This document shows, in pieces, positions 40,643 through 63,933 of a DNA stretch of 64,000 nucleotides (its first letter is position 1; each line of letters opens with the position of its first letter). Origin of the DNA: Phycisphaerales bacterium (GTDB taxonomy: Bacteria; Planctomycetota; Phycisphaerae; UBA1845). The stretch is from assembly GCA_020639115.1 (NCBI GenBank), contig JACKHG010000005.1, forward strand, positions 114,071-178,070, in the 5' to 3' direction. Under the pieces are notes generated by a model. That model was not told the origin of the DNA. It saw nothing but the letters and a program-made list of their open reading frames with translations, and searched no databases. Both the position numbers and the translations under genes were made by a program.

Positions 40643-40682
40643 GGAAGCCAACCGAGGTCAAACTCGTCGAAATGTCCCGCAA

Positions 40683-41393: not shown

Positions 41394-41486
41394 TATCGAT
41401 ATTTCCTCTTGTTTCTACAAATACACCGGTTCGTCGCCCGTGCGAGACTTATTGAGTTCGGCTGTACAGTTTGTATCCATCGCAGA

Positions 41487-42740
41487 TCAGACCCCTGGAG
41501 GAAAGCTTGGTGGCGTAGCTGGAGAGGTCTTGTTTGGCGTATTGTTATCGTTGAAGCAGCTCCATGCCCCTGGACAATTCCAGCTTGTAGGGGCTGAATC
41601 CCTCCACTCGGTGCTCTCTTCGCATCCGCAAACGGTCACGTTCTTTTGCTTGCATTTGCTGTTCCTGGCAACATGTTCGGCTTGCCCATTCGTGCCTCCT
41701 GGACCATCTCTCCCCGACTGACAACTCAGGAAATTGATCGTACCGCCGTCCTTCATCTTTCCACATAATGTGCCCGCTGGAATAGTGCTGGGAGGTCGTG
41801 AGTTCCCGCACCTTACGTACCCTCCGCCGCCAGTGCAACCGTGGGCCCCAATGTCAAGTCTGTCGGCCGAGTCATCCGTTATCTTATTTAGATAATCTTG
41901 GCACTTTGCGCACTTATCGAAAGGCCAAGATTGATCGTATCCAGAGACCTGTCCGAAACCAGGCGTAGAACCTTCATCATAGAATAGGATACTTGTGTGC
42001 CCAGACCAATCGGTTCGGGCAAGTGGACTGGCTGCGGTGGCGACATACAAGTTTTGACCGTCGGCGTATCCGCTACGGGCTACGTGAGATTCGATCAGTG
42101 GATCCCTCTGCATAAAACGCTTCGCCCGCGGCGAATACTGCCGCGCCCGGTTCTGATACGACCCGATTTCCGGATCGAGCACCAGCCCTTGGTGGGCAAA
42201 GAGGTTGCTGCGGCGGCTGTGGGTGGCGGCGGGGACGCGCTGCAGCTCGGTGTCGCTGTTGAGGGTGGCAATGTAGGCGGCGATGGCCGTCTGATCGGCG
42301 CTGTCCACCACGCCGTCGGCATTGGCGTCCAGCCGGCGGCAGTCGCCGCTTGCGGCGCCAGAGCACGTGCCATTTGTCGTCACAGCGTAGTCGTCGTCGT
42401 CCACGTCGCCGTCGTCGTCGTAATCGAACGGGTGGGCCGCCACGACCGCCTCCAGCTCGCCGTACGGGCTGTACCAGTAGCGCTCGATCACCCGGCCGGT
42501 GAGGTCGGTCAGCGCGGTGACGTTCCAGTTGGCGTCCTGGGACGCGTACAGCCGGCCGAGGTCCTTCACCCTCAGGCCGACGACCTCGTCGATGTAGCGC
42601 GTGCCATGGTACACCTGCACCTCCACGTTCCCCAAGCCGTCGAAAGTGCCATGACCCCACTGAGCATTCGGTTGGCCATTGTCAGAGCTCAGAACCATAC
42701 TGCGCCAGTGGTCAGGTTTCCCGATCGATCGGCGTTCCAC
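41487..42740 (-). CDS. orphan (5'-truncated) Rhs repeat-associated core plus variable Cys-rich C-terminal domain (CT1)
   Basis: YD repeats, then ..YWYSPYGE.., then the core end FAHQGLVLDPEIGSYQNRARQYSPRAKRFMQRDPL, then a low-GC unique tail. At 417 aa it is far shorter than full-length Rhs. Confidence 0.78.
   Translation of the reverse strand: MERRSIGKPDHWRSMVLSSDNGQPNAQWGHGTFDGLGNVEVQVYHGTRYIDEVVGLRVKDLGRLYASQDANWNVTALTDLTGRVIERYWYSPYGELEAVVAAHPFDYDDDGDVDDDDYAVTTNGTCSGAASGDCRRLDANADGVVDSADQTAIAAYIATLNSDTELQRVPAATHSRRSNLFAHQGLVLDPEIGSYQNRARQYSPRAKRFMQRDPLIESHVARSGYADGQNLYVATAASPLARTDWSGHTSILFYDEGSTPGFGQVSGYDQSWPFDKCAKCQDYLNKITDDSADRLDIGAHGCTGGGGYVRCGNSRPPSTIPAGTLCGKMKDGGTINFLSCQSGRDGPGGTNGQAEHVARNSKCKQKNVTVCGCEESTEWRDSAPTSWNCPGAWSCFNDNNTPNKTSPATPPSFPPGV
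42110..42633. repeat. 524-bp Rhs-core duplication, copy 1
   Basis: Collinear with 43613-44136 at equal length and roughly 90% identity by eye. Confidence 0.8.
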
Positions 42741-45977: not shown

Positions 45978-46216
45978 GCGGCGGCTCACGGAGGGGTGCG
46001 GTTCAGCCGGGTCCGGCACCTGCCGATACCAGCGCTGGCAGGCGCATCTGCGCTGCGACCGATAAGGCGCACCCCGAGCGCCCTGGCGGTCGCGAAGCGG
46101 CGATGATAGGGATACGACCGGCGCGTGGCAACGGTTCGTCTTGCACGGGCCACCGCCGCTCCTATCATGGCCCGACCGTTTCGAGGAAAAAGACACCGCA
46201 CCGGGAGATCCCACAC

Positions 46217-47536
46217 GTGCTACATCGCCAGCAGATCGAGCGCATCAACGACCGTTCCTTCGTCGTCGGTATTATCGGGATGGGTTACGTCGGCCTGCCG
46301 CTGACCCGCTCGTTCTACGACGCCGGCTTCAAGTGCGTCGGCTTCGACGTGGACGAACGCAAGATCAAGATGCTCAACGCCGGCAAGAGCTACATCAAGC
46401 ACATCACCTCGGAGTTCATCGCCAAGGCGCGCAAGGAGGGCCGCTTCCGCGCGACCTCCGATTTCGCCGAGCTGAAGAAGGTGGACGCGATCATCATCTG
46501 CGTGCCCACGCCGCTCACCAAGATGCGCGAGCCGGACATGTCGTACGTGCAGAAGACGTGCGAGGTGGCTGCGAAGTACCTGCGCAAGGGGCACCTCGTT
46601 GCGCTGGAGAGCACGACCTATCCCGGCACGACGCGCGAGCTCATGCTCCCGCTGCTCGCCGCCGGCGGGCTCAAGGTGGAGCGCGACTTCTTTCTTGCGT
46701 TTTCCCCGGAGCGCGAGGACCCCGGCCGCAAGACGCACACGACCACGACGATTCCCAAGGTGGTCGGCGGTTACGGTCCGAAGAGCCTCGCCGTGGCCAA
46801 GGCGCTCTACGGCGCCGCGCTCGAGACCGTGGTGCCCGTCTCGAGCTGCGAGGTGGCGGAGGCCGCGAAGATCCTCGAAAACGTCTACCGCTGCGTGAAC
46901 ATCGCGCTGGTCAACGAGATGAAGGTGCTCTTCGACCGCATGAACATCAACGTCTGGGAGGTGATCCAGGCGGCGGCCACCAAGCCGTTCGGCTTCCAGG
47001 CCTTCTACCCCGGCCCGGGGCTCGGCGGCCACTGCATCCCCATCGATCCGTTCTACCTCACCTGGAAGGCCCGCGAGTACGGCATGAACACGCGGTTCAT
47101 CGAGCTGGCCGGCGAGATCAACACGGACATGCCCGAGTACGTGGTGCACAAGACCGCGGAGGCCCTCAACACCCACAAGAAGCCGCTGAACGGCTCGAAG
47201 GTGCTCGTGCTCGGACTCGCCTACAAGAAGGACGTGGACGACCTGCGCGAGTCGCCCTCCATCGAGATCATCGAGTTGTTGCGCGAGCGTGGCGCGAAGG
47301 TCGCCTACAACGACCCCTTCTTCAAGCAGACCCACAAGCAGCGTGAGCACGACCTGCGGATGAAGAGCACCCCGCTCACGCCCGCGTCGGTCAAGGGCTT
47401 TGACTGCGTCTTGATTGCAACCGATCACTCCTCGTACGATTATCAGTGGATCGTGGATCACGCCCAGCTCGTGGTCGACACCCGCAACGCGACGGCGGGC
47501 TGCAAGCGCGTCGCGCGCAAGGTGGTCAAGGCGTAG
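46217..47536 (+). CDS. UDP-N-acetyl-hexosamine (nucleotide-sugar) dehydrogenase (WecC/TviB/WbpA-like)
   Basis: Rossmann motif GIIGMGYVGLP and catalytic Cys region GPGLGGHCIPIDP. GTG at 46217. Confidence 0.9.
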   Translation: MLHRQQIERINDRSFVVGIIGMGYVGLPLTRSFYDAGFKCVGFDVDERKIKMLNAGKSYIKHITSEFIAKARKEGRFRATSDFAELKKVDAIIICVPTPLTKMREPDMSYVQKTCEVAAKYLRKGHLVALESTTYPGTTRELMLPLLAAGGLKVERDFFLAFSPEREDPGRKTHTTTTIPKVVGGYGPKSLAVAKALYGAALETVVPVSSCEVAEAAKILENVYRCVNIALVNEMKVLFDRMNINVWEVIQAAATKPFGFQAFYPGPGLGGHCIPIDPFYLTWKAREYGMNTRFIELAGEINTDMPEYVVHKTAEALNTHKKPLNGSKVLVLGLAYKKDVDDLRESPSIEIIELLRERGAKVAYNDPFFKQTHKQREHDLRMKSTPLTPASVKGFDCVLIATDHSSYDYQWIVDHAQLVVDTRNATAGCKRVARKVVKA

Positions 47537-49154: not shown

Positions 49155-50318
49155 ATGAGCCCCAGGAATCGCAAGAGACCCAAGAAGCTGACGCCCCAGC
49201 AGCGCGTTGCCACGCGCGTGATCGCGGGCTTTCTGGCGGTCTGCCTGCTCGCCGGCGTCGCCGTGGCGGGCTGGGCCGGCGTGCGCATCCACCACGCCTG
49301 GACGACATCCCACTGGCCGTCGGTTATCGGCGAGGTGATCCGCTCCTCCGTACGGCAGCGCGCCGACCACACGCCCCCGGTGCACCACGGCGTGGCTGCC
49401 GGCACGTGGACCTACGAACCGGAAATCACCTACTGCTACACCGTGGAAGGTACGGAATACACCGCGAGTGGCGTTACGGCCACGCGGGTATCCACCAGCC
49501 GCTCCGCCTCCGCCGAGTCGGTCGTCGCCCGCTACCCCGTCGGCCGCCGCGTGAAGGTGCACTACAACCCGGCGGACCCGGGCGAAGCACTGCTCGAGCC
49601 CGGCCTCTCCTGGACCGCGACCGCCCCGCTGCTCTTCGCGGGCCTCGCGTTCTGCGTCGTCCCCATCGCCCTGGGGGTGCCCGTCGTGCGCCGGCTGCGC
49701 GACAGTCAGCCACGGCGCCGCCCGACTGCTGCGGGCACCGCGCCGCCCGGTCTGCCGCGTGACAGCGGCATCCGTGAACTGGAGGCGTCGCCGGCACGCG
49801 TCGTGCTCCACCTGCCCGCCGGCCGGACCGGCGTGAGCACGACCGGGTGGCTGGGAGCCATTGGCGTCGGTTTGGGCCTCTTCTACGCCGCGTTTTTCCT
49901 GCCCGATCTCTTCGTGGCGGGCGCCCGCTGGTCGCTGAGGGACATCGTTCTGACGAGTGGATTCGGCGGCGCCGGCGTTGCGGGTATTGCCCTGCTCGCC
50001 TGGTGGGTCAGGCTCAAGTACGAGTCCACGCGGCTGCAGGCCGACGCCGAGGAACTGCGCATCGAACGCCGCCTGGGTCCGCTTCGCCGCGGGCAGCGGA
50101 TCGTGCTGGCGCCCGGCGCCCGCGCGGAACTCGTGCACCATCACGACGACAACGGCGCGCCGGTCTTTGCGGTCGGCGTGGCGGGCGCGTCGCCGCAGCC
50201 GGTGCTGGGCGTCACGCTGGAGGACGCGGAGAAGACCTGGCTGGTGGACCGGCTGAACGCGCTCATCGCCCCGGAGGCCGGCCCGTGTGAATTCCCAACC
50301 GACCATCGGCCGGATTGA
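49155..50318 (+). CDS. DUF3592-domain membrane protein with extra C-terminal TM/soluble region
   Basis: WPSVIGEVIRSSV...YEPEITYCYTVEGTEYTASG...YPVGRRVKVHYNPADPGEALLE is the DUF3592 signature. Confidence 0.72.
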   Translation: MSPRNRKRPKKLTPQQRVATRVIAGFLAVCLLAGVAVAGWAGVRIHHAWTTSHWPSVIGEVIRSSVRQRADHTPPVHHGVAAGTWTYEPEITYCYTVEGTEYTASGVTATRVSTSRSASAESVVARYPVGRRVKVHYNPADPGEALLEPGLSWTATAPLLFAGLAFCVVPIALGVPVVRRLRDSQPRRRPTAAGTAPPGLPRDSGIRELEASPARVVLHLPAGRTGVSTTGWLGAIGVGLGLFYAAFFLPDLFVAGARWSLRDIVLTSGFGGAGVAGIALLAWWVRLKYESTRLQADAEELRIERRLGPLRRGQRIVLAPGARAELVHHHDDNGAPVFAVGVAGASPQPVLGVTLEDAEKTWLVDRLNALIAPEAGPCEFPTDHRPD

Positions 50319-50401: not shown

Positions 50402-51925
50402 TCAGAAGCCGCGATGCGACGCCGTGCGCACCTTGGCCACGTCCGCGCCCTTGGGCGCGAAGAGCGTGCCCTGGCTCTGCAGGCGGACGGTGAGCAGCGC
50501 GTCGCGGGCGATCGCCTGGCGGATGTTGAACGGCACGTCGTTGCCGATCACGCCGGCGGCCAGCACGCGGGCATCGCTGCTGCGGTGCAGCACCTGGCTC
50601 GCGTCACGCAGCTTGCCGAGCGCGACGCGGTTGTCCTGCAGGTTGGTCAGGCGCGCGTCGAGCTGCTCGATCGCGCGGGCGTAGCGCTGCCGGGCGGCGG
50701 CGAGGTCGACGCGTTTCGGCGTCTCGGCGCCGGCGGCTTCCCACATCGTGTCGAGCCGCGTCTTCTCCGCGGCGAGCATCGTTTTTTCCTGCTCGAGGTC
50801 GTACTGCTCGCCGTCGAGCGAGGTATACGGCTGATCCGGTGCGGTCAGGCCCGCGGCGTAGGCCAGGGCCACGCGGCGCTCCGACAGATCGTCGAGCTGC
50901 TCGTTGACCATCGCGATCGCCGACAAGGCCGCCTGGAGCTGCCACTCGTTGTTCACGAAGGCCGCGTCGTTCTTGTAGAGGTGGTCGGTGATGTCGAGGA
51001 TGCGTTTGCGGCGCTCGTAGCGGTTGACCTCTTCCCACATGACGTTCTTGCACGCGGTCAGCTCTCGCCAGAGGCCGTCGACGATCCGCGTTTTCCAGCG
51101 GGTGGTGTCGAAGTCCGCCACGACGAGAACCTTGGTGAGCGGGTCACCCGTGCGGACGTTGGCGATGTCCGCCGAGCAGAACGCGGCGCGCGTCCGCGGA
51201 TCGATCTGCCGCTCGTCGCCCGGCAGCACCAGCACGATCGCCTCGTTGACGAACTGCTCGTACTTGGGCTCGTACTGCTTGTGCCAGTTCTCCTGCCACC
51301 ACACGGCGCGGTTGATCTTGTGCGCCAGGCGATCGAGCGCCCGCAGCTCGCGCTGGAAGCTCTTGAACGCCTCGGGATCGGTGTTGGCGCGGCCGGCCAC
51401 CTCGGCCTCGTAGGTGAGCTGCTGCTTGAGCTCGGGCACGCGGGTCTGCCACTGGTGCAGCACGTCGAGCAGCACGCTGTTCGGCGCGTTGACGGTGAGG
51501 TTGCCCTGCACGGTCGTCGCCGGATCCTGCTCCCACAGGGCGAACGTGTAGTCGCCGGGGACCAGGTCGAGATCGTTGTACGTCACGTCGTTGCCGTCGT
51601 AGGGGCCGCCCCACATCGTGACGAAGTAGCGCTCGGCGTGGGCCAGCGCGTTCATCTCGTCGTAGTTGGCGGTCGCCATCTCGGTGAACTCGACCGCCGG
51701 CGCGTTGGGATCCTGCGCCTGCGCGGTGTTTTCGCCCTGGGCGTAGGTGTCGCTCGCGTTCTGGACATCGTCCACCGGCGCCAGCGCATACCGTGCGTTG
51801 CTGGGCGGCATGGCGAAGCGCAGCGAAACGGTCGACACGCGCTCCTGCGCCTTCTGCTCGTGGCACCCGGCCAGCAGCAGAACCGCCGCAACCGAGGACA
51901 TCGTCACCGACAATCGATTCATCAC
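50402..51925 (-). CDS. hypothetical lipoprotein (507 aa)
   Basis: MMNRLSVTMSSVAAVLLLAGC lipobox. Long helical regions. No family recognised. Confidence 0.7.
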   Translation of the reverse strand: MMNRLSVTMSSVAAVLLLAGCHEQKAQERVSTVSLRFAMPPSNARYALAPVDDVQNASDTYAQGENTAQAQDPNAPAVEFTEMATANYDEMNALAHAERYFVTMWGGPYDGNDVTYNDLDLVPGDYTFALWEQDPATTVQGNLTVNAPNSVLLDVLHQWQTRVPELKQQLTYEAEVAGRANTDPEAFKSFQRELRALDRLAHKINRAVWWQENWHKQYEPKYEQFVNEAIVLVLPGDERQIDPRTRAAFCSADIANVRTGDPLTKVLVVADFDTTRWKTRIVDGLWRELTACKNVMWEEVNRYERRKRILDITDHLYKNDAAFVNNEWQLQAALSAIAMVNEQLDDLSERRVALAYAAGLTAPDQPYTSLDGEQYDLEQEKTMLAAEKTRLDTMWEAAGAETPKRVDLAAARQRYARAIEQLDARLTNLQDNRVALGKLRDASQVLHRSSDARVLAAGVIGNDVPFNIRQAIARDALLTVRLQSQGTLFAPKGADVAKVRTASHRGF

Positions 51926-52298: not shown

Positions 52299-52406
52299 AT
52301 GAACAATGCGCAGATCCTCGGACTGATTCTGGTGACGATCGTCGGGCTGATCGGGTTCACCGACACGTGCCTGTGGCTGACGCGCCGCGAGCGGCGGCGC
52401 GACTGA
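52299..52406 (+). CDS. possible 35-aa single-TM peptide
   Basis: MNNAQILGLILVTIVGLIGFTDTCLWLTRRERRRD with a GGGAG about 10 nt upstream. Lies 130 nt upstream of the GTPase pair. Confidence 0.35.
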   Translation: MNNAQILGLILVTIVGLIGFTDTCLWLTRRERRRD

Positions 52407-52539
52407 GCCGCGTTTGCCCCGTTTTCCACATTTCGCCTCCCGCCCGCCTCGGAAATAACCTCCGCTGCGCGTCGAACTGGAAATGCGCCGGTGCTTGGCG
52501 TACAAGCACGGCAAACCGGCGCGAACGCGGCAGGTAACG

Positions 52540-54174
52540 ATGGCCCATCACGACGATCAACTGGCGAAGTTGGCTGATCCCCACACGCGCGCCGCGCTGG
52601 GCGGCGCCGCGTTGGGCTGGTCGGTGCGCGACGCGCACGCGTGCTCTGCGCTGCGCTTCCTGCATCACGCCACCGACGCCCCCGCCGTGATCGGGCTGGT
52701 CGGCGGCGCGTCCTCGGGCAAGAGCACGATCTTCAACGCGCTGGTTGGGCGGGAGCTCAGCGCGATCAGCGCCCACGCGCACGAGACGCTCGGACCGATC
52801 GTGGCGGCGACGCCGGACGGAGTCGAGGGCGTCCGGCAGTGGATGGCGGCTGACCTGCTCTTCGCCGAGTACCGGGCGGAGGCATTCACCGAGGGTCAGC
52901 CGACGACCGGCAGCGCCGACGCAGTGCACCTCGCTGCGCACGCCGGCTCCGAACTTGCCAACGTCGTGCTCTGCGACCTGCCCGACGTCACCAGCCGGTC
53001 CGCAGCGGACGAGGGCGCTGTCACCCGCAGCCTGCTGCCTTACTTCGACGCGTTGATCGTGGTCGTGGACGAGGAACGCTGGTTCGACGCGGCGATCTTT
53101 GAGGACTTTCTGGCGACCGCGCGAAACTACGGACCGCGGGTGTTCATCGTCTTCAACCGAACGGAGCAGGCTCCGGCGCTCGGCGCGGAGGAACGCGAGC
53201 GCGTCGCGGGCGTGGCGGAGCAGAATGGGGCGTCGGGCCACTGCGTGAGCGAATTTCAGCCCGGCAGCGGGTATCGGCCCGTAACCGACGCGACGCGGCA
53301 CGCGCTGCTCGAGTGGATCCGGGCGAAAGCGCATCCGGATCGCCGCAAGGCGCTGGCCAATCACCTGGCCCAGCGGGCGAGCGCGGTCATCGCGGAGAAC
53401 GTGTCGCGGGCCGAGCGCTACGATGCGCTGCAGCGGGCTGTGCACAACGAACTCGCCCAGATTGCGCGGGACACGAGCCTCACGCTCGACCTGCTCACGC
53501 CGGACGAACGTGGTTTTCTCGGGCTCGGCCATCGGTTCGTGCCGTTGTACGACCTGGCCCGGCAGGTGGGCCGGCGGCTGGGCGGGTTGATGGGCCGCAA
53601 GGCAGCCGGCGAGGTCGAGTTCGACAAGCGGCAGGATGCGCTCGCGGAAACGCTGCGGCACAACCTGGAGATCCGCTTCGGGCGTGCGACCGCGCGGATC
53701 GACGAGCAGGTGGCAGCCAACGACTACCTGCCCGCCGCTGCCGCCTGGCAGAACCAGTGGTCGCCGCCGCCGATTGATGCGAACGAGTGGGGCCGGCGGA
53801 TTCGCGCGCACATCGACGCGTGGCGCGATGAAGCAAAGGCCCAGAGCCGCCAAGGCGACATCGCAGCCATGTCGATCGGCACGCCGCTGCTGGTCGCGGA
53901 CCTGCTCTTTCTGGGCGGTGCGGGATTTACCGTAGCGTGGGTGGCGGCGTCCGTTGCGGGTTTTCTGGGGGGCAAGGGCATCAGCCGCCTGGTGCAGCGT
54001 TCGCCGGCGTACGCGGCGTACCAGACGACGGTGCGGGCGTACCAGTCGCTGCTGCGCGAGTCGCTGGCGGAGCAGTGGGAGGCGAACCTGCAGCGCATGC
54101 CGCGCCGACACCTCAAGATGACCGATCCGATCCTGACCGCGCTGATGCACGTGTCCACCCCGGGGAGGGCGTGA
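52540..54174 (+). CDS. dynamin-like/P-loop GTPase 1 with C-terminal hydrophobic hairpin
   Basis: G1 GGASSGKST; G3-position LCDLPDV; degenerate G4 FNRTE; helical stalk; TM-like IGTPLLVADLLFLGGAGFTVAWVAASVAGFLGG. Confidence 0.78.
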   Translation: MAHHDDQLAKLADPHTRAALGGAALGWSVRDAHACSALRFLHHATDAPAVIGLVGGASSGKSTIFNALVGRELSAISAHAHETLGPIVAATPDGVEGVRQWMAADLLFAEYRAEAFTEGQPTTGSADAVHLAAHAGSELANVVLCDLPDVTSRSAADEGAVTRSLLPYFDALIVVVDEERWFDAAIFEDFLATARNYGPRVFIVFNRTEQAPALGAEERERVAGVAEQNGASGHCVSEFQPGSGYRPVTDATRHALLEWIRAKAHPDRRKALANHLAQRASAVIAENVSRAERYDALQRAVHNELAQIARDTSLTLDLLTPDERGFLGLGHRFVPLYDLARQVGRRLGGLMGRKAAGEVEFDKRQDALAETLRHNLEIRFGRATARIDEQVAANDYLPAAAAWQNQWSPPPIDANEWGRRIRAHIDAWRDEAKAQSRQGDIAAMSIGTPLLVADLLFLGGAGFTVAWVAASVAGFLGGKGISRLVQRSPAYAAYQTTVRAYQSLLRESLAEQWEANLQRMPRRHLKMTDPILTALMHVSTPGRA

Positions 54175-54175
54175 G

Positions 54176-55984
54176 ATGGCTGATATCGCCCGCCGTGAGG
54201 AACTCGCCCTGCAGCACGTCAACACCGAGCTGGCGGAGCTGCTCGACGTCGCCGCGCTGCCCATGGAGCACGGAGGCGGCCGGGCGCTGGCGGACACGCT
54301 GTGGGTCTGGGGCATCGTCGGCGGGAAGGATGTTGGGAAAAGCACATTGATCAACGCGCTCGCGGGGGGCGACGTGGTCGATCGCGGCGTGGACTACGGC
54401 GAGGGGACGTTCGCGCCGTCGGCGTACCTGACCAGCCGCGACCGGCCGGCGCTGACCGCACGATTCGCGGGGCTCGAGGAGCTGGACATCCGCTACGTGG
54501 ACGCGGCGCCCGATACGATGCGCGGACTGGTGCTGGTGGACCTGCCCGATTTCGACTCGCTCTTCACCGATCACCTGGCGGCGGTCCGGAGGATCGCCGG
54601 CGTGCTCGACGGGATCATCTGGGTCACGACGCCGAAGAAGGTGGGCGACGTGCGGGCGATCGACGAGGTTGAGCGAATTCTCAAGGCGCGGGCGAACTTC
54701 GCGTACGTGGTCAACAAGATGGACTGGCTGATCGCGCAGAGCAATCAGCCGCCGCAGGTGGAGTTGGCGCGGGCGGCGGAGGCGCTGCGCCGCCAGGTGT
54801 CGTGCTGCGATGCGGACGACGGCCGGGCGCGATCGTTCCTGGTCTCGGCGCGCTACCGCACGCACGACGACATGCTCGCGGCGATCGCCCGAAGCCGGGC
54901 GGTGGACGCAGCGCGGCTCAATGGGGAGATGGCGCAGGCGGTCGATGAGCTGCTGGGCCGTTTCACGGCGCTGCGCGAGCGGCTGACCACGGCGCCCACC
55001 AGCGACGTCGCCGAGGCGAACAAGCAGGCCAACCTCACCTTCCAGTTGCGCACGCAGGCCGAGCGGTTGCGGCAGCACTATCAGCCGGAAGCCCTGCTGG
55101 CCCGGTTGGAGCGGGCGCTGGACGAGGAGACGCTGAACGATCTGGCCGCGCGGTATTTCTCGCCGGAATACTGCGCCGCGGTGCTGCGGCGGTTGAACGG
55201 CGCCGACATGCTGTTTGCGACGTGGTCGGCGAGCCTGTTCCGGCGGAGGGTGGCGCGCTGGCCGCTGCTGGGTGCGGTCGCGTCGCCGCTGATGGCGATC
55301 GGGGCGGCGCTGGCGGGGATGCGGGCGCTGCTGCCTCGATTGGGTTCGCCCGAAGCGCCCGATCCGTTCCGCCAGGACGGGGTGGGGATTCGCGAGCGGG
55401 CGGATGGTCTGGTGGCGGCGATTCGGGCACGGCTTGCGGGCCTGTCGCCGCGGGCAGCGGCTGACCTGCCGGACGCCGACGAAATCGCTCGCACGTTCGC
55501 CGCGGACGCGCGCGGCCTGGCGGAGACGCAGCGCGAGACGATCGCCGCGACGCACATGCAACGCCGCGCGGGTGCGTTCGGCCGCATGGTGCGCGGCGCG
55601 ATCACGCTGAGCGTGCTGTTGTGGTTTCCACTGGTTCAGCCGCTCCTCGCCGCCTGGCTTGCGACGGCTGGTGCGGATGGCGTCAACGTCACGGAGAGCC
55701 TGAAACTGCTCGTGCACACGCTGTCGGGCGGCGCGGTGCTCTCGGGGCTGTGCGTGTCGCTGCTGCTGCTCGCGGCGCTCACCGGCGCGGTGTATTCCCG
55801 AGCGGTGGCGGACACCTACCGAGCGCTGGACCGGCTGCGGACGCTCGCGGACGAGGGCGGCACCGATACGCTCAATTCCGGCCTGTTGGCAGCCATCACG
55901 CAGGCGCCGCGGGCCCTGCGCAGCCGCTTGGCGGAAATCATCGAGCGGCTGGAAGCACTGGCGGACACGTCCGGAGGCGGTTGA
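54176..55984 (+). CDS. dynamin-like/P-loop GTPase 2 with C-terminal TM segments
   Basis: G1 GGKDVGKST; G3-position LVDLPDF; G4 VNKMD. Starts 1 nt after the GTPase-1 stop behind a GGGAGGG RBS. Two C-terminal TM stretches. Confidence 0.78.
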   Translation: MADIARREELALQHVNTELAELLDVAALPMEHGGGRALADTLWVWGIVGGKDVGKSTLINALAGGDVVDRGVDYGEGTFAPSAYLTSRDRPALTARFAGLEELDIRYVDAAPDTMRGLVLVDLPDFDSLFTDHLAAVRRIAGVLDGIIWVTTPKKVGDVRAIDEVERILKARANFAYVVNKMDWLIAQSNQPPQVELARAAEALRRQVSCCDADDGRARSFLVSARYRTHDDMLAAIARSRAVDAARLNGEMAQAVDELLGRFTALRERLTTAPTSDVAEANKQANLTFQLRTQAERLRQHYQPEALLARLERALDEETLNDLAARYFSPEYCAAVLRRLNGADMLFATWSASLFRRRVARWPLLGAVASPLMAIGAALAGMRALLPRLGSPEAPDPFRQDGVGIRERADGLVAAIRARLAGLSPRAAADLPDADEIARTFAADARGLAETQRETIAATHMQRRAGAFGRMVRGAITLSVLLWFPLVQPLLAAWLATAGADGVNVTESLKLLVHTLSGGAVLSGLCVSLLLLAALTGAVYSRAVADTYRALDRLRTLADEGGTDTLNSGLLAAITQAPRALRSRLAEIIERLEALADTSGGG

Positions 55985-56412
55985 TGAGAAGCGCATGGCT
56001 ACCGGTCGTCGCGGTCGGACTTCTGGCCCAGGCGGGGTGCGCGCAGAACAGCGCGACGATTCGATACAGCCAGGAGACCGGCAGGCTCTGGGGGATTCAA
56101 ACGGTCGCGTTGCACGCGAACGGCACGGTAACCTTGGTCGATGCGGAGACGGGCGACCACGGCCCGGCCCTGACGATGCTCGACCATCAGCGCCGAGCGG
56201 TCCAGCAAGTCACATTGTCCGCTGGTGACCGCTGCAGCCTCTCGGACGGCCATCACGTCAGCCTGGTCTACACGTTGCGAGGTGTCCGGAATGGACAAGC
56301 GCTCGTGCGCATCCACGAACGTACCGACACGCGAGCGATGGGCGGCATCACAAACGACGCGAGCCGCACGGTCGCGATCGACGCATACACCGAACAACCG
56401 AAGTCCGAATAG
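55984..56412 (+). CDS. small lipoprotein (142 aa)
   Basis: MRSAWLPVVAVGLLAQAGC lipobox. Its ATG shares 1 nt with the GTPase-2 stop (TGATG). Confidence 0.62.
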   Translation: MRSAWLPVVAVGLLAQAGCAQNSATIRYSQETGRLWGIQTVALHANGTVTLVDAETGDHGPALTMLDHQRRAVQQVTLSAGDRCSLSDGHHVSLVYTLRGVRNGQALVRIHERTDTRAMGGITNDASRTVAIDAYTEQPKSE

Positions 56413-56458: not shown

Positions 56459-58063
56459 TCACTTCTGCTCGGGGTCCGTCCATACCGACACGGCGCACCA
56501 CGCTGCCCCGGCGCGCTTCGTGCTGAAACGGCTCTCCAGCAGCGTCGTGAGCGCTTCGGCGCGGGTCGCGGCGAAAGCGGCGGTAACGGCGTTGTTGCCC
56601 GGACGCTCGTCGACCTGGGCCAGGGTCCAGGCGTCGCTGATGGAATCCCCCTTGTTGTAGCGCCCGTAGAAACGCCAACCCGAGCGATCCAGCGAAGTGT
56701 GTTCGCCATCGGTGCCGCAGATCGTACGTATGCCGCCGATGAAGCCGCTCAGCGCCCACGCGTCGAAGAGCGTGCATTTATTGGGCTCCGCCACGTACGC
56801 CATCGTGCTGCAGCCCTCGAGGAACAGGTGGCGTAGGCGGCGCTGACCGAGCGCAGTTCCGGGCGGCGGGTCGAACTTCACCCACACGTCGAGCTGGCGC
56901 CGGAACCGAAAGCGCGTCCCGACGCTGCCGCCGTGCGTGAAGACGCAGGCGACGTCGCACTGCTCGAGATCCACGTAGAACGGCGGCTCGAGCTGCGCAC
57001 ACTCAGCGAACGGGTACTCGTACTCCTTCCCGTCGGACTTTTGCCGCCGCCGCGTCTCGCGCGGCTCGCCGCCGACGAGCGGATAGCTCGCCAGGCTGCG
57101 ATGAAAGCGGACCTCCACGCCGGGATGTTCCCAACCGTGCGTGCGCGGATCCCAGTTGCCGCGCACCGCTCCGACGCCCCCGTACCGCTTCCACCAGACC
57201 CAGCACCAGTGGTGATAGTCCGTGGACCGGCGATAGTCGGCGGCGTCGACGAGGTCGCGGTGCCCTAGGTCGTAATGATCGCGGCCGAAGGGATCGGTGC
57301 GCTGCGCGACGTTGATGAACGGCTCGCCTTCGTGGGAATACGCCTGCAGTTCGAAGCGATACTCGTCGGGGTCGAAGAACGTACCCACGCGCAGGCGGCG
57401 CGGCGTTTCGCGCCAGGTGATGGCCCCCGCGTCAGATGGCGGAACCGCGAGTTCATCCACCAGCGACGTCAGACGCGGGCTCTGCACGTTGGTGTCGACG
57501 CGCACCGGCGCACGATCGGCCGAGAAGACAGCCACGAAGTAACCGCCGCCGGACAGGTCGGACAGGCGCACGAGAAAGCGACCCGCGTAACGCTCGACGG
57601 TGCCGTCGGAACGGCGGCAGAGCAGCAGGACTTCCTGCTTGACGTGCACGGGTGTGCCGTCGGCTCGCTCGACGTCAGCCAGTTCACCGGCGAGCCGCCA
57701 GGTGGTATCGATCAATTCGCTGCGGACCGCGGACGCCATTGCCGGCTTGACATTGGCGCCGGCGACGCGATGACGCTCAAGGTCCGCACCCCCGGCGGGC
57801 GAACGGGCCGGACGAAAGGTGCGGTTACCAGCGCAGTCGATGACGAGGACCCACGCATCATCCGCAACTTCAATCCAGGTCGGAGCGCGACGAAGCGTTC
57901 GAGCCGCAGATGCCTTCGATCCGACGGCGGCGACAAACCGGTCGAATTCCTCGTCGGTGCCAGCCGGCACGCCGGGCGGTGCCCCCTGCGCGACACTGAC
58001 TGCGCAGGCGCCAATGGACGCCAGGATCCAGGCAGCTCGCGTTGATCTCCGCCATCCGCACAT
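56459..58063 (-). CDS. secreted hypothetical protein; C-terminal half has a clan-CD-like His-Gly...Cys dyad
   Basis: Signal peptide. ..ACVFTHGGSVG..(35 aa)..HLFLEGCSTM, with each catalytic-type residue at the end of a hydrophobic strand. Confidence 0.65.
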   Translation of the reverse strand: MCGWRRSTRAAWILASIGACAVSVAQGAPPGVPAGTDEEFDRFVAAVGSKASAARTLRRAPTWIEVADDAWVLVIDCAGNRTFRPARSPAGGADLERHRVAGANVKPAMASAVRSELIDTTWRLAGELADVERADGTPVHVKQEVLLLCRRSDGTVERYAGRFLVRLSDLSGGGYFVAVFSADRAPVRVDTNVQSPRLTSLVDELAVPPSDAGAITWRETPRRLRVGTFFDPDEYRFELQAYSHEGEPFINVAQRTDPFGRDHYDLGHRDLVDAADYRRSTDYHHWCWVWWKRYGGVGAVRGNWDPRTHGWEHPGVEVRFHRSLASYPLVGGEPRETRRRQKSDGKEYEYPFAECAQLEPPFYVDLEQCDVACVFTHGGSVGTRFRFRRQLDVWVKFDPPPGTALGQRRLRHLFLEGCSTMAYVAEPNKCTLFDAWALSGFIGGIRTICGTDGEHTSLDRSGWRFYGRYNKGDSISDAWTLAQVDERPGNNAVTAAFAATRAEALTTLLESRFSTKRAGAAWCAVSVWTDPEQK

Positions 58064-58266: not shown

Positions 58267-59109
58267 GTGCGACCTTTCAAGAAGAAAAGCAGCGTGATGC
58301 GGATGACGCCAGCCGACGAGGCGGCGGCCTACGACGCCGCGCAGTGCGTCGTGGAGACGCACCGGCGGCTGGCGGGGTGGCTGCACGCGGGTCTGACGCT
58401 GGAGGCGGTGGACGCGTTCGTGGCGCAGACGCTGGAGGCGTTGGACTGCCGCTCATGCTTTCTGGGGTACCAGATTCCTCGGCATCAGCCGTTTCCGAAC
58501 CACGCGTGCCTGAGCGTCAACGCGTGCGTGGTGCACGGAACGGCGGAGGCGCACACCGCGCCGCTGCAGGCCGGGGACGTGCTGAAGATCGACATCGGCG
58601 TGCTGCACAAGGGCTGGATTGGGGATGCGGCGTGGACGTACGTGTTCGGCGCGATGAGTCCGGAGGTGAAGCGGCTGACCGATTGCGGCAAGGAGTCGAT
58701 CCGCAAGGGGCTCGAGCAGTTGCGACCGGGCAAGCGGCTGATCCATTGGGCGCGGGCGGTGCAGCGCTACGTCGAGGACCAGCAGGGGTTTTACCTGGTT
58801 CGCGGCCTCGGCGGGCACGGCTACGGCCGGGTGCTGCACGCCGCCCCGCACATCGCCAACAACGTGCCCGACCGGCCGGGCGAGTGGCCCGAGGCGCAGG
58901 CCGACATCGTCCCGGGGATGCTGCTCGCGGTCGAGCCGATGATCGCAGCCGGCACCGCGCAGGTGATGCAGCGGGGGCGGGGTTGGCCGGTGTACAGCGT
59001 GGACGGTTCGCAGACGGTGCACTACGAGCACGACGTGCTGATCACGGAGGAGGGGCACCGGTTGCTCACGGCGGGTCTCGAGGACGTGGCGGACGTGATC
59101 ACGCGGTAG
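58267..59109 (+). CDS. map: type I methionine aminopeptidase
   Basis: M24 metal-ligand regions: ..VLKIDIGVLHKGWIGDAAWTY.., ..GHGYG.., ..LAVEPMI.., ..YEHDVLIT... Confidence 0.9.
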   Translation: MRPFKKKSSVMRMTPADEAAAYDAAQCVVETHRRLAGWLHAGLTLEAVDAFVAQTLEALDCRSCFLGYQIPRHQPFPNHACLSVNACVVHGTAEAHTAPLQAGDVLKIDIGVLHKGWIGDAAWTYVFGAMSPEVKRLTDCGKESIRKGLEQLRPGKRLIHWARAVQRYVEDQQGFYLVRGLGGHGYGRVLHAAPHIANNVPDRPGEWPEAQADIVPGMLLAVEPMIAAGTAQVMQRGRGWPVYSVDGSQTVHYEHDVLITEEGHRLLTAGLEDVADVITR

Positions 59110-59207: not shown

Positions 59208-59903
59208 CTACAGCAGGCCGCGTTTGCGCATGACGGCCAGGATCATCTCGACGGTTTCATCCACCGACAGGCTGGCGAGATTGGCGACAAGGTCGAAGCG
59301 ATCGGGCGCGTCGGGCTCCTCGTGAAAATGGCTGCGGATGAAGCGGCTGCGCTGCTGCTCGATCCGCTCGATCTCGCGTGCCGCATCGATCGCGGACATG
59401 CCGGTGCGTTCGGCGAACGCCTGGGCACAGAGTGCGGGCAGCGAGACCACGCGCACGCGCAGGCCGCAGCCACGGGGCAGGACGAGGTCGGCGCCGCGGC
59501 CCAGGAAGATCGCGTGTCCGTGGCGCACGAGCGCGAGCATCGTCTCGGTGAGGCGGCGGAAGTAGTCGTTGCGGCGAAACTCCGCGGTCGTGAAGCTCAG
59601 TAGGGATTCCTCAATGAAGCTCTGGTCGCGTTCGTCGAGCGTTTCATAGATGCGCTGGCGCACGCCGTCGTCGCCGGACATGTGCAGGAGCAGTTCGCGG
59701 TCGAAGAGCGGCCAGTCGATCGCCGCCGCCAGGTGGCGGGCGACCTCGGTGCCGCCGCTGCCGACCATGCGGGAGATGGTCACGAAGGGCTGGGTGGCGG
59801 CGGACGTTTCGGGAGCGGTGATCTCCTGCTGGCGGGCGAGTTCCCAGTTGCGCATCTGGCGTTCGACGGCGGCGCTGACGGACTTGCTGCGGATGGTCGA
59901 CAT
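59208..59903 (-). CDS. cytidylate kinase-like family protein (Cytidylate_kin2 type)
   Basis: FVTISRMVGSGGTEVARHLAAAIDWPLFDRELL matches the family's N-terminal signature. Confidence 0.78.
   Translation of the reverse strand: MSTIRSKSVSAAVERQMRNWELARQQEITAPETSAATQPFVTISRMVGSGGTEVARHLAAAIDWPLFDRELLLHMSGDDGVRQRIYETLDERDQSFIEESLLSFTTAEFRRNDYFRRLTETMLALVRHGHAIFLGRGADLVLPRGCGLRVRVVSLPALCAQAFAERTGMSAIDAAREIERIEQQRSRFIRSHFHEEPDAPDRFDLVANLASLSVDETVEMILAVMRKRGLL

Positions 59904-60366: not shown

Positions 60367-63933
<3,567 letters not shown>

What the first reader, a model, noticed from the sequence alone, without database searches (positions are those of the whole stretch)
52299..56412. Membrane-anchored tandem dynamin-like GTPase module with Gly-to-Asp G3 motif (DLPD), flanked by a mini-TM peptide and a lipoprotein
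Two adjacent, tightly coupled genes (stop-g-ATG, then TGATG) encode 544- and 602-aa P-loop proteins with G1 motifs GGASSGKST and GGKDVGKST. At the position of the dynamin 'DLPG' G3 motif both carry DLPD (LCDLPDV and LVDLPDF), so the gamma-phosphate-sensing glycine is replaced in both paralogues. G4 is canonical in the second protein (NKMD) and degenerate in the first (NRTE), which suggests an active/regulatory heterodimer. Each has a long helical stalk-like region and C-terminal hydrophobic hairpins. A 142-aa lipoprotein is translationally coupled downstream, and a possible 35-aa TM peptide lies upstream. Paired bacterial dynamin-like proteins are known (DLP1/2, IniA/IniC, LeoA/LeoBC = Eleos defence). 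These proteins are shorter, the shared DLPD substitution is unusual, and I do not recognise the four-gene arrangement.
Basis: partly seen in the sequence, partly recalled or inferred. Interest (0 to 1): 0.6.

Follow-up and report, generated by a model that had tools for sequence, protein, structure and literature searches.

The report
Paired membrane dynamin-like GTPases, DynAB type
Two adjacent genes in this Phycisphaerae (Planctomycetota) genome encode a pair of membrane-associated dynamin-like GTPases, distant relatives of the Streptomyces cell-division proteins DynA/DynB. The unusual Asp-for-Gly change in their nucleotide switch is a fixed hallmark of that whole family, so this is an uncharacterised member of a known kind and not a new system.

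Summary
Genes A (52540-54174, 544 aa) and B (54176-55984, 602 aa) are real and 1 nt apart. Both carry a P-loop, a switch-I Thr and D-L-P-D where dynamins have D-x-P-G.

- **Fold.** AlphaFold models (pLDDT 83 and 91) match BDLP, Cj-DLP1/2, IniA, mitofusin, SynDLP and LeoA.
- **Motif.** DxPD is not a sporadic decay. It occurs in about 170 A/B homologues, in 102 of 103 further representatives, and in Streptomyces DynB orthologues. One DynA orthologue has DAPD.
- **Link to DynAB.** I identified the Streptomyces dynAB locus through published primer sequences. G-domain profiles match DynB at 99.4-99.7% probability.
- **Pairing.** The A-then-B pair is conserved in about 70 of 80 loci from Planctomycetota, Omnitrophota and Desulfobacterota.
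- **Asymmetry.** B keeps NKxD. A has N-R-T-x and lacks the guanine-specifying Asp.
- **Other genes.** The four-gene arrangement is not conserved. The putative lipoprotein is unique to this genome, and the 35-aa membrane peptide recurs in only three related loci.
- **Defence.** No PADLOC (Eleos) match, and the neighbours are housekeeping genes.

Verdict: an uncharacterised DynAB-type bacterial dynamin pair, of moderate interest. The interest comes from the family-wide G3 variant, which I did not find discussed, and from the host class, which is reported to lack FtsZ.

The parts
52540..54174 (+). Gene A: 544-aa dynamin-like NTPase (upstream partner). N-terminal helices, G domain at about residues 45-245, helical bundle, a Gly-rich hydrophobic hairpin at about 445-480, then C-terminal helices.
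   Evidence: ORF. Pfam Dynamin_N 32.6 bits (P-loop region only) and MMR_HSR1 29.7 bits. About 50 full-length homologues at 44-64% identity in Phycisphaerae/Planctomycetota MAGs. AF2 pLDDT 83. Foldseek hits IniA, Drp1, OPA1, Cj-DLP and BDLP.
52702..52728 (+). A G1/P-loop, GGASSGKST (residues 55-63).
   Evidence: Conserved in A homologues; G55, G60 and K61 are invariant.
52975..52986 (+). A G3 variant, D-L-P-D (residues 146-149), followed by an almost invariant Ser152.
   Evidence: D146, P148 and D149 are invariant over 53 sequences. D[LMTV]PD occurs in 61 of 71 A-like ORFs across phyla by regex scan, which found no G3 match in 4 and left the rest unscored for want of a P-loop match.
53155..53166 (+). 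A degenerate G4, N-R-T-E (residues 206-209). The guanine-specifying Asp is absent.
   Evidence: The family pattern is FN[RQ]T-x, with the fourth residue varying among E, Q, R and A.
53872..53979 (+). A hydrophobic Gly-rich hairpin (residues about 445-480). Presumed membrane-insertion element.
   Evidence: Kyte-Doolittle peak of 1.91. The AF2 model shows two short helices (447-458 and 465-474) with low pLDDT.
54176..55984 (+). Gene B: 602-aa dynamin-like GTPase (downstream partner), the closest relative of Streptomyces DynB.
   Evidence: ORF. More than 150 homologues. AF2 pLDDT 90.9. Foldseek hits BDLP 2j68 at E=2.5e-9, plus Cj-DLP1/2, MFN1/2, SynDLP, IniA and LeoA. hhalign against the DynB profile gives 99.7%, E=1.1e-25.
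54320..54346 (+). B G1/P-loop, GGKDVGKST (residues 49-57).
   Evidence: G49, K51, G54 and K55 are invariant over 101 sequences.
54539..54550 (+). B G3 variant, D-L-P-D (residues 122-125), within an invariant DLPDFDS.
   Evidence: D122, P124, D125 and S128 are invariant. The motif aligns to DLPG of SynDLP. DxPD occurs in 102 of 103 further library representatives.
54713..54724 (+). B canonical G4, N-K-M-D (residues 180-183).
   Evidence: NKxD is conserved in both similarity tiers of the B family; K181 and D183 are invariant.
55265..55333 (+). B hydrophobic segment 1 (residues 364-386).
   Evidence: Kyte-Doolittle 1.84; helix 365-385 in the model.
55589..55792 (+). B hydrophobic segments 2 and 3 (residues 472-539). 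They include the invariant W483 and Q488-P489 and the nearly invariant F484-P485 (window sequence WFPLVQP).
   Evidence: Kyte-Doolittle 1.83 and 2.32; conserved columns.
52299..52406 (+). 35-aa single-TM peptide ORF (MNNAQILGLILVTIVGLIGFTDTCLWLTRRERRRD), 134 nt upstream of A. Probably a real small gene, but restricted to a subclade.
   Evidence: 77% amino-acid identity in L081, with 8 synonymous-only and 8 non-synonymous codon differences. Homologous peptides lie upstream of A in L013 and L014, where A is only about 50% identical. Absent from the other loci.
55984..56412 (+). 142-aa secreted protein or possible lipoprotein whose start overlaps B's stop codon. Probably co-transcribed here, but NOT part of the conserved module.
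   Evidence: No homologue next to the pair in any of 81 loci, including L081. No significant Pfam, NCBIfam or PADLOC hit.

Best explanation
Genes A and B encode a heterotypic pair of membrane-associated bacterial dynamin-like proteins (BDLPs). They belong to the clade that contains Streptomyces DynB, and more distantly DynA. The sequence signature of this clade is a switch-II/G3 motif D-x-P-D-x-x-S in place of D-x-x-G.

Proposed working (inferred by analogy with solved BDLP pairs and with DynAB):
1. Both proteins sit on the cytoplasmic face of the inner membrane, held by their hydrophobic hairpins.
2. Their G domains bind nucleotide and pair with each other. Nucleotide turnover then drives hinge movements of the helical bundles that tether, bend or stabilise membrane.
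3. B keeps all guanine-specific contacts (NKxD) and is the GTP-specific subunit.
4. A keeps the P-loop, the switch-I Thr and the DxPD motif but has lost the guanine-specifying Asp (N-R-T-x). It probably binds nucleotide with relaxed or changed base specificity and acts as the regulatory or asymmetric partner.
5. The Asp that replaces the G3 glycine is under strict selection. Its backbone NH could still contact the gamma-phosphate. Its side chain is a candidate ligand for a cation or for a residue of the partner.

The physiological role is unknown. The context points to a housekeeping function in the cell envelope or in division, not to defence. The downstream 142-aa protein is a lineage-specific passenger, and the 35-aa peptide is an accessory found only in a subclade.
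For: Shown:
- ORFs and motifs.
- Dynamin-superfamily fold for both proteins, from confident models.
- The G3 Asp aligns to Gly of DLPG in SynDLP.
- A and B are G-domain paralogues.
- An A-like gene lies directly upstream of a B-like gene in about 70 of 80 loci from 204 species-level hits, across Phycisphaerae, Planctomycetia, Omnitrophota and Desulfobacterota. No other neighbour is conserved.
- DxPD is universal.
- L080 in Streptomyces boninensis is the dynA/dynB locus. Published S. venezuelae and S. coelicolor dynA(K74A), dynB(K129A) and dynA-3' primers match it, and the GTG start puts the P-loop Lys at residue 74.
- That DynB has LVDLPDFDS and that DynA has LLDAPDIDS. All but one of the 120 listed DynB homologues carry DLPD[HFY]DS, and many are annotated 'YfjP family GTPase'.
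- hhalign of B against DynB gives 99.7%, E=1e-25 over 355 columns. Phycisphaerae-only A against DynB gives 99.4%, E=6e-22.
- B keeps NKxD; A-like proteins have NRT-x.
- Hydrophobic hairpins.

From the literature:
- P-loop Lys mutants of DynA and DynB change phenotype, so nucleotide binding matters in DxPD proteins (bioRxiv 10.1101/2025.06.23.661029).
- DynB has two TM segments and binds SepX (PMC8748795).
- Most bacterial DLPs are operon pairs that act heterotypically (PMC6104087).

Context: the neighbours are housekeeping genes (PFOR, Met-aminopeptidase, UDP-glucose dehydrogenase), and there is no PADLOC hit.
Against: - Outside the G domain, sequence homology to DynB is weak for B and undetected for A. 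Orthology with DynA/DynB is therefore not established; only clade membership is.
- Foldseek TM-scores are low (0.2-0.37). Flexible multi-domain proteins would give this, but it is no proof of equivalent architecture.
- No heterodimer model, nucleotide-binding test or localisation data exist.
- Membrane insertion rests on hydropathy alone. A's hairpin helices are short (about 10-12 residues) and modelled with low confidence.
- Replacing the G3 Gly is known to cripple switching in Ras-like GTPases (textbook knowledge), so catalysis may be atypical or absent.
Confidence: 0.7

Rival explanations
1. The pair is part of the FtsZ-independent binary-fission machinery of Phycisphaerae: a membrane-anchored dynamin pair that constricts or stabilises the division site, as DynAB does at Streptomyces sporulation septa.
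For: - G-domain homology to the divisome proteins DynB and DynA.
- Phycisphaerae divide by binary fission and lack FtsZ (PMC8882080; bioRxiv 10.1101/817700).
- The pair is widespread in the class, with no assembly represented twice among the 80 retained loci, and sits in housekeeping context.
Against: - DynAB works through FtsZ, SepF2, SsgB and SepX, which are absent or unknown here.
- The same pair occurs in Desulfobacterota and Omnitrophota MAGs. Those groups are not known to lack FtsZ (my knowledge), so the pair is not tied to FtsZ loss.
- Other BDLP pairs (Cj-DLP1/2) show no division phenotype (PMC6104087).
- No division genes lie nearby.
Confidence: 0.12
2. The proteins are pseudo-GTPases, that is nucleotide-binding scaffolds. 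Loss of the G3 glycine abolishes gamma-phosphate sensing and hydrolysis, and the pair acts only as a static membrane scaffold.
For: - Gly-to-Asp at G3 in both proteins.
- A also lacks the G4 Asp.
- In Ras-like GTPases the G3 Gly is needed for the switch-II transition (textbook knowledge).
Against: - The P-loop, switch-I Thr, Walker-B Asp and the replacing Asp plus Ser are strictly conserved over hundreds of sequences and several phyla. This pattern indicates an active site under selection, not decay.
- P-loop mutants of the DxPD proteins DynA and DynB are functionally defective.
Confidence: 0.12
3. The pair is an anti-phage or stress-defence dynamin system of the Eleos (LeoA/LeoBC) or B. subtilis DynA kind.
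For: - LeoA (4aur) is among the structural matches.
- Bacterial DLPs are known to act in phage defence and membrane repair (titles and abstracts).
- The genomic context of the pair varies between genomes.
Against: - PADLOC gives only a P-loop-level LeoA match for A (E=0.03, 11 bits) and nothing for B.
- There is no third Leo-like gene.
- The neighbours are housekeeping or secreted-protein genes, with no defence or mobile-element genes.
- No assembly appears twice among the 80 retained loci, and similarity follows taxonomy, which looks vertical and not island-like.
Confidence: 0.05
4. They are Era/EngA/EngB-like ribosome-assembly GTPases, as some database names suggest ('50S ribosome-binding GTPase', 'EngB').
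For: - MMR_HSR1 hit for A (29.7 bits).
- Sequence-profile hits to Der and Era in the PDB.
- Source annotations.
Against: - The hits cover only G1-G2 or the bare G domain.
- NCBIfam Era scores about 20 bits against a cut-off of 237.
- The full-length models match dynamin-superfamily structures.
- The proteins have more than 300 residues of helical bundle plus hydrophobic hairpins and no KH or other RNA-binding domain.
Confidence: 0.03

Closest known systems
Streptomyces DynA/DynB (sporulation and cross-wall dynamin-like pair: Schlimpert et al. 2017, cited in PMC6104087; Bush et al. 2022, PMC8748795; Liu et al. 2025, bioRxiv 10.1101/2025.06.23.661029). DynB orthologues are annotated by NCBI as 'YfjP family GTPase'.
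   Same: - Adjacent, co-oriented, tightly coupled gene pair.
- G domains are homologous: B is 40% identical to DynB over 144 residues (E=1e-18) and A is 29% identical. Profile comparisons give 99.4-99.7% probability.
- The same D-x-P-D-x-D/T-S switch-II motif.
- The downstream partner carries C-terminal hydrophobic segments.
- Nucleotide binding is needed for function in DynAB.
   Different: - Only the G domain aligns confidently, so A-to-DynA orthology is not shown.
- A has a hydrophobic hairpin, whereas DynA shows no C-terminal hydrophobic segment.
- A's G4 is N-R-T-x. DynB's is NQ[IV]D and B's is NKxD.
- The host class is reported to lack FtsZ, and whether the other DynAB partners (SsgB, SepF2, SepX) exist here was not examined.
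Campylobacter jejuni Cj-DLP1/Cj-DLP2 and Nostoc BDLP (solved bacterial dynamin-like proteins, PDB 5owv/5oxf and 2j68/2j69).
   Same: - Best structural matches, with Foldseek probability 1.00 and E from 2.5e-9 to 1e-7.
- Operon-paired heterotypic DLPs.
- Same plan: G domain, helical neck and trunk, and a membrane-binding tip.
   Different: - About 12-15% sequence identity.
- They have the canonical DxPG G3 motif (SynDLP shown; the others from my knowledge).
- They are peripheral paddle binders and not proteins with long hydrophobic hairpins.
- They are larger, at about 600-700 aa or more.
Mitofusin/Fzo1 and mycobacterial IniA.
   Same: - Structural matches over the G domain and first helical bundle, with TM-score up to 0.5 on the target.
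- Mitofusins are likewise anchored by a hydrophobic hairpin between helical regions and act as isoform pairs (PMC6104087 abstract).
   Different: - Eukaryotic or actinobacterial proteins.
- Canonical G3 and G4 motifs.
- No detectable sequence-profile relationship beyond the G domain.
Eleos (LeoA/LeoBC) defence system.
   Same: Dynamin-like fold; LeoA 4aur appears among the hits.
   Different: - The PADLOC models do not match.
- There is no three-gene leoABC layout.
- The locus is not in a defence context.

Membership tests
Dynamin superfamily / bacterial dynamin-like proteins (BDLP) | G1 P-loop GxxxxGK[S/T] | tested here: met
   A has GGASSGKST and B has GGKDVGKST. Both are conserved across homologues.
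Dynamin superfamily / bacterial dynamin-like proteins (BDLP) | G2 / switch-I threonine | tested here: met
   A T83 is invariant (HETLGP). B T78 is at least 90% conserved (GEGT..P).
Dynamin superfamily / bacterial dynamin-like proteins (BDLP) | G3 DxxG (usually DxPG) | tested here: not met
   Both proteins have DLPD. The profile aligns DLPD to DLPG of SynDLP. Asp is fixed family-wide.
Dynamin superfamily / bacterial dynamin-like proteins (BDLP) | G4 [N/T]KxD | tested here: inconclusive
   Met in B (NKMD; K181 and D183 invariant). Not met in A (NRTE; the family pattern is NRT-x).
Dynamin superfamily / bacterial dynamin-like proteins (BDLP) | Overall fold: enlarged G domain plus helical neck/trunk bundles | tested here: met
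   AF2 models have pLDDT 90.9 and 83.1. The top Foldseek PDB hits are all from the dynamin superfamily, with probability 1.00. TM-scores are low (0.2-0.37), consistent with hinge differences.
Dynamin superfamily / bacterial dynamin-like proteins (BDLP) | Pfam Dynamin_N (PF00350) at or above the gathering score | tested here: inconclusive
   A scores 32.6 bits against a cut-off of 27, but the match covers only profile positions 1-27 of 168. B scores 20.6 bits, below the cut-off.
Dynamin superfamily / bacterial dynamin-like proteins (BDLP) | Membrane-binding element (paddle or TM hairpin) and nucleotide-dependent G-domain dimerisation with stimulated hydrolysis | not testable with these tools
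   Hydrophobic segments are present. Binding, dimerisation and catalysis need experiments or a multimer model.
Streptomyces DynA/DynB-type pair ('YfjP family GTPase' in NCBI naming) | Adjacent co-oriented gene pair of two paralogous large GTPases | tested here: met
   There is a 1-nt gap between A and B. The pair is conserved in about 70 of 80 loci. L080 dynA and dynB overlap or abut.
Streptomyces DynA/DynB-type pair ('YfjP family GTPase' in NCBI naming) | G-domain homology to DynB | tested here: met
   blastp gives B against DynB 40% over 144 aa, E=1e-18, and A against DynB 29%, E=3e-11. hhalign gives 99.7% and 99.4%.
Streptomyces DynA/DynB-type pair ('YfjP family GTPase' in NCBI naming) | Switch-II motif D-x-P-D-x-[D/T]-S | tested here: met
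   Window A has DLPDVTS and B has DLPDFDS. DynB has DLPD[HFY]DS in 119 of 120 listed homologues. The S. boninensis DynA has DAPDIDS.
Streptomyces DynA/DynB-type pair ('YfjP family GTPase' in NCBI naming) | Full-length orthology (stalk and TM regions alignable; upstream partner soluble, downstream partner with two TM segments) | tested here: not met
   The A-core profile aligns to DynB only over 150 G-domain columns. B aligns over 355 columns, with weak confidence beyond the G domain. A carries a hydrophobic hairpin, unlike DynA.
Streptomyces DynA/DynB-type pair ('YfjP family GTPase' in NCBI naming) | Function at FtsZ rings through SepF2, SsgB and SepX | not testable with these tools
   Phycisphaerae are reported to lack FtsZ (PMC8882080). 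No partner genes were seen in the window.
Eleos (LeoA/LeoBC) anti-phage system | Match to the PADLOC LeoA/LeoB/LeoC models and the three-gene layout | tested here: not met
   A matches LeoA at E=0.03 with 11.4 bits, in the P-loop only. B and the neighbouring genes have no hits. No third GTPase gene is present.
Era/EngA/EngB ('50S ribosome-binding GTPase', MMR_HSR1) | Equivalog-level match to Era, Der or YihA models and RNA-binding accessory domains | tested here: not met
   The best NCBIfam hit is Era at 20.9 bits against a cut-off of 237. MMR_HSR1 passes for A (29.7) but not for B (19.8 against 21.9). There is no KH domain, and the C-terminal 300 or more residues are a helical bundle.

The most novel reading that the evidence does not exclude
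The DxPD clade, including this Phycisphaerae pair, may be a mechanistically distinct subclass of dynamins. In it an acidic residue replaces the gamma-phosphate-sensing glycine, and a GTP-specific subunit (B) pairs with a base-promiscuous or ATP-using subunit (A). In FtsZ-less Phycisphaerae this membrane-anchored pair may be a core part of the unknown binary-fission machinery.
Probability: 0.12. Interest if true: 0.8.

Novelty: new member of a known kind. Interest (0 to 1): 0.4.

Why it matters
1. **A family-wide change in a defining motif.** A whole clade of bacterial dynamin-like proteins, including the genetically studied Streptomyces DynB, has a fixed Asp where nearly all P-loop GTPases have the switch-II glycine. 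A full-text search for 'DLPD' with 'GTPase' found no paper that discusses it. A D-to-G or D-to-A test in DynAB, or in this pair, would show how dynamin-type catalysis tolerates or uses the change.

2. **A candidate for an open question.** How Planctomycetes divide without FtsZ is unresolved. This conserved, membrane-anchored pair is a relative of a divisome-associated dynamin pair. It is a concrete candidate that can be tested in cultured Phycisphaerae, although the link is only a hypothesis at present.

3. **Annotation.** These proteins are currently labelled '50S ribosome-binding GTPase', 'EngB' or 'hypothetical'. 'DynAB-type dynamin-like GTPase pair' would be more accurate.

Tried and rejected
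- **Defence models.** PADLOC and NCBIfam scans gave no defence or equivalog match.
- **Lipoprotein as part of the module.** Rejected. tblastn over 80 loci, inspection of ORFs downstream of B, the gene list of the 82% relative and an ORF-versus-ORF comparison found no homologue.
- **DUF6345, DUF3592 and the 507-aa upstream gene as conserved partners.** Rejected.
- **Mini-peptide.** An HMM over six-frame translations of all loci found it only in L081, L013 and L014.
- **Promoter and terminator scan of the locus.** Nothing above the shuffled expectation.
- **Circular comparison discarded.** hhalign of A1 against the DynB profile is not usable, because A1 already contained Kineosporia DynB-like sequences. 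I repeated it with Phycisphaerae-only sequences.
- **Literature searches.** Searches for 'DLPD'+GTPase, 'YfjP', and BDLP+Planctomycetes returned nothing on this family.

Full report
**Source and anatomy.** The window is about 68% G+C. Proteins identical to genes A and B are recorded from Phycisphaerae MAGs (P0001 and P0061). On the + strand lie:
- a 35-aa ORF (52299-52406);
- gene A (52540-54174, 544 aa);
- gene B (54176-55984, 602 aa), one base after A's stop;
- a 142-aa ORF (55984-56412) whose ATG overlaps B's TGA.

An upstream ATG at 52483 would add 19 residues to A. Homologues of about 547 aa cover A from residue 1, which supports 52540.

**Checking the motifs.** A has GGASSGKST, LCDLPDV and NRTE. 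B has GGKDVGKST, LVDLPDF and NKMD. A profile of the B family aligns 'vLVDLPDfDS' to 'VLVDLPGIDA' of the solved cyanobacterial dynamin-like protein SynDLP.

**Is DLPD a sporadic decay? No.**
- D-[LMT]-P-D-[VI]-T-S is present throughout the A homologues, and D146, P148 and D149 are invariant.
- DLPD[FVI][DE]S is present in 120 B homologues of two similarity tiers.
- In the ORFs of 81 fetched loci, a regex scan finds DxPD in 61 of 71 A-like ORFs and in every B-like ORF it could score (72 of 74). It found no G3 match in four A-like ORFs, and the remaining ORFs lacked a recognisable P-loop and were not scored. The loci include MAGs labelled Omnitrophota and Desulfobacterota.
- An exhaustive HMMER search of 1.84 billion cluster representatives finds 240 B-family proteins at E<=1e-30 and 1289 at E<=1e-10. 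Of 103 new representatives with a P-loop, 102 have DxPD and none has DxPG.
- The switch-I Thr is also conserved: A T83 is invariant and B T78 is at least 90% conserved.

**Asymmetry.** B keeps NKxD in both tiers. In A-like proteins the motif is FN[RQ]T-x, with the fourth residue varying among E, Q, R and A. The Asp that reads the guanine base has been lost across the A family, while the phosphate-binding elements are kept. That A has altered base specificity is an inference. YchF, an NxxE protein that prefers ATP, is a precedent from my own knowledge.

**Fold.** AlphaFold2 with family alignments gave confident models: B has pLDDT 90.9 and pTM 0.80, and A has pLDDT 83.1 and pTM 0.79. Each model has an N-terminal helix, an alpha/beta G domain, long helical bundles and hydrophobic helices. 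Foldseek against the PDB returns only dynamin-superfamily proteins at the top.
- For B: BDLP 2j68 (E=2.5e-9), Cj-DLP1/2, mitofusin 1/2, SynDLP, IniA, Drp1 and LeoA.
- For A: IniA, Drp1, OPA1, Cj-DLP2, BDLP, dynamin, Mx and EHD.

TM-scores are low (0.2-0.37). That is expected for hinged multi-domain proteins, but it means the architecture is similar and has not been shown to be identical.

Sequence libraries see only the G domain.
- Pfam Dynamin_N matches A at 32.6 bits over the P-loop segment only, and B at 20.6 bits, below threshold. MMR_HSR1 matches A.
- PDB profile hits are Der and Era for A and SynDLP for B.
- A and B are paralogues over G1-G4 (hhalign 99.3%, E=8e-21).

**Membrane association.** Hydropathy peaks lie at A 445-480, a Gly-rich stretch modelled as two short helices with low confidence. 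In B they lie at 364-386, 472-493 and 509-539. The second B segment holds W483, Q488 and P489 (invariant) and F484 and P485 (at least 90% conserved). Membrane insertion is inferred. Whether the segments span the membrane or are re-entrant is open.

**Neighbourhood conservation.** A scan of one genome per GTDB species found 204 loci that encode a B relative, of which 80 were fetched.
- tblastn shows an A-like gene directly upstream of the B-like gene in almost every locus that has enough upstream sequence.
- All-against-all clustering of ORFs finds A (71 loci) and B (72 loci) as the only widely shared families. A ClpC-like gene is shared by 11 loci.
- Gene junctions are tight or overlapping in other phyla too.
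- The 142-aa protein, DUF6345, DUF3592 and the 507-aa upstream gene have no counterparts next to the pair elsewhere. The 507-aa gene recurs only in L081.
- In L081, where B is 82% identical, the downstream gene is an unrelated 609-aa protein.
- The 35-aa peptide is conserved in L081 (77% identity; 8 synonymous-only and 8 non-synonymous codon changes). Recognisably homologous peptides (MNTxQWIGIG...TD...RRRR) lie upstream of A in L013 and L014, where A is only about 50% identical. It was found nowhere else.

So the conserved unit is the A-B pair. The peptide is a subclade accessory and probably a real small membrane protein. The '142-aa lipoprotein' is a local passenger, and its lipobox (LAQAGC) is non-canonical.

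**Link to a characterised system.** Weak hits of A were actinobacterial 'YfjP family GTPases' that also carry DLPDVDS. The last genome hit, L080 (Streptomyces boninensis), has two adjacent GTPase genes. Primer sequences published for S. venezuelae and S. coelicolor dynA(K74A), dynB(K129A) and the dynA 3' end (Table S2 of bioRxiv 10.1101/2025.06.23.661029) match these ORFs:
- the DynB primers match at 89% over 38 nt (E=4e-8) at the second P-loop;
- the dynA 3' end matches 22 of 22 nt;
- the encoded peptides STGAG(K)STLVNSLVG and TV(I/V)AIAGATGSG(K)S(T/S)LFNALAG agree;
- the GTG start at 7648 puts the P-loop Lys at residue 74.

L080 therefore carries dynA/dynB. Its DynB has LVDLPDFDS and NQIDR, and its DynA has LLDAPDIDS. 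Of the 120 listed DynB homologues, 119 have DLPD[HFY]DS, and many are named 'YfjP family GTPase'.

Window B is 40% identical to DynB over 144 G-domain residues (E=1e-18) and A is 29% identical (E=3e-11). Matches to DynA are weaker. Profile-profile comparison gives 99.7% (E=1e-25, 355 columns) for B against DynB. A Phycisphaerae-only A profile gives 99.4% (E=6e-22, 150 columns). The earlier A1 comparison was circular and is disregarded.

DynA/DynB are dynamin-like proteins of the Streptomyces divisome. DynB has two TM segments and binds SepX, and P-loop Lys mutants are defective (PMC8748795; bioRxiv 2025; PMC6104087). The DxPD motif is thus shared with an experimentally studied, functional pair. 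I found no paper that discusses the substitution, and the 2017 PNAS paper is not held.

**What it most likely is and does.** It is a heterotypic, membrane-associated BDLP pair of the DynAB-type clade.
- Shown: homology, fold, motif conservation and pairing.
- Inferred: cytoplasmic G domains pair in a nucleotide-dependent way and drive movements of the helical bundles that tether or shape the inner membrane. B is GTP-specific and A is an asymmetric partner with relaxed base recognition. The fixed Asp, together with the Ser three residues later, has a positive role in catalysis or in the dimer interface.

The physiological role is unknown. Three observations argue against a defence island:
- The neighbours are housekeeping genes: PFOR, Met aminopeptidase, UDP-glucose dehydrogenase and a cytidylate-kinase-like gene.
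- There is no PADLOC hit.
- No assembly appears twice among the 80 retained loci.

Phycisphaerae divide by binary fission and lack FtsZ (PMC8882080). A role in division is therefore an attractive hypothesis. It is weakened because the pair also occurs in MAGs of phyla not known to lack FtsZ, and because other BDLP pairs have no division phenotype.

**Verdict.** The sequence observation is confirmed and the dynamin-like interpretation is supported. The 'four-gene module' is not supported. The 'unusual' motif is a clade hallmark already present in known proteins. This is a new, uncharacterised member of a known kind, of moderate interest.

Noticed in passing
window 40001-42000 (ORFs 39842-40591 -, 40683-41393 -, 41487-42740 -): G+C drops to 0.555 against about 0.67 for the rest of the window. 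The ORFs there have no Pfam match. This may be a foreign island.
   Followed up: no
window 50402-51925 (-): A 507-aa protein with a lipoprotein-like N-terminus (…LLLAGC) and no significant family match, transcribed divergently from the mini-ORF and A. It is conserved only in the closest relative, L081.
   Followed up: partly
window 56459-58063 (-) and 49155-50318 (+): A DUF6345 protein (35 bits) and a DUF3592 membrane protein (61 bits) flank the pair. Neither is conserved next to the pair elsewhere.
   Followed up: partly
window 60367-63933 (+); 58267-59109 (+); 59208-59903 (-); 46103-47536 (+): Housekeeping genes near the pair: pyruvate:ferredoxin oxidoreductase, M24 methionine aminopeptidase, a cytidylate-kinase-like protein and UDP-glucose dehydrogenase.
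   Followed up: yes
B residues 483-489 (window 55622-55642): A W-F-P-x-x-Q-P motif inside the second hydrophobic segment of B. W483, Q488 and P489 are invariant and F484 and P485 at least 90% conserved over 101 sequences. Prolines within a hydrophobic helix suggest a kinked or re-entrant membrane element.
   Followed up: no
L021-L071 (second-tier loci), e.g. L034 750-3269 (-): A ClpC-like 839-aa gene lies near the GTPase pair in 11 of the more distant loci. This is probably subclade synteny.
   Followed up: no
L080 5288-7216 (+): In Streptomyces boninensis a large ORF that looks like a serine recombinase lies just upstream of dynA. This is my reading of its sequence; no family scan was run. 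It may be an integrated element beside the dynAB locus.
   Followed up: no
window 14001-36000: Strong negative GC skew, from -0.15 to -0.36, in contrast with about 0 to +0.1 after 44 kb.
   Followed up: no
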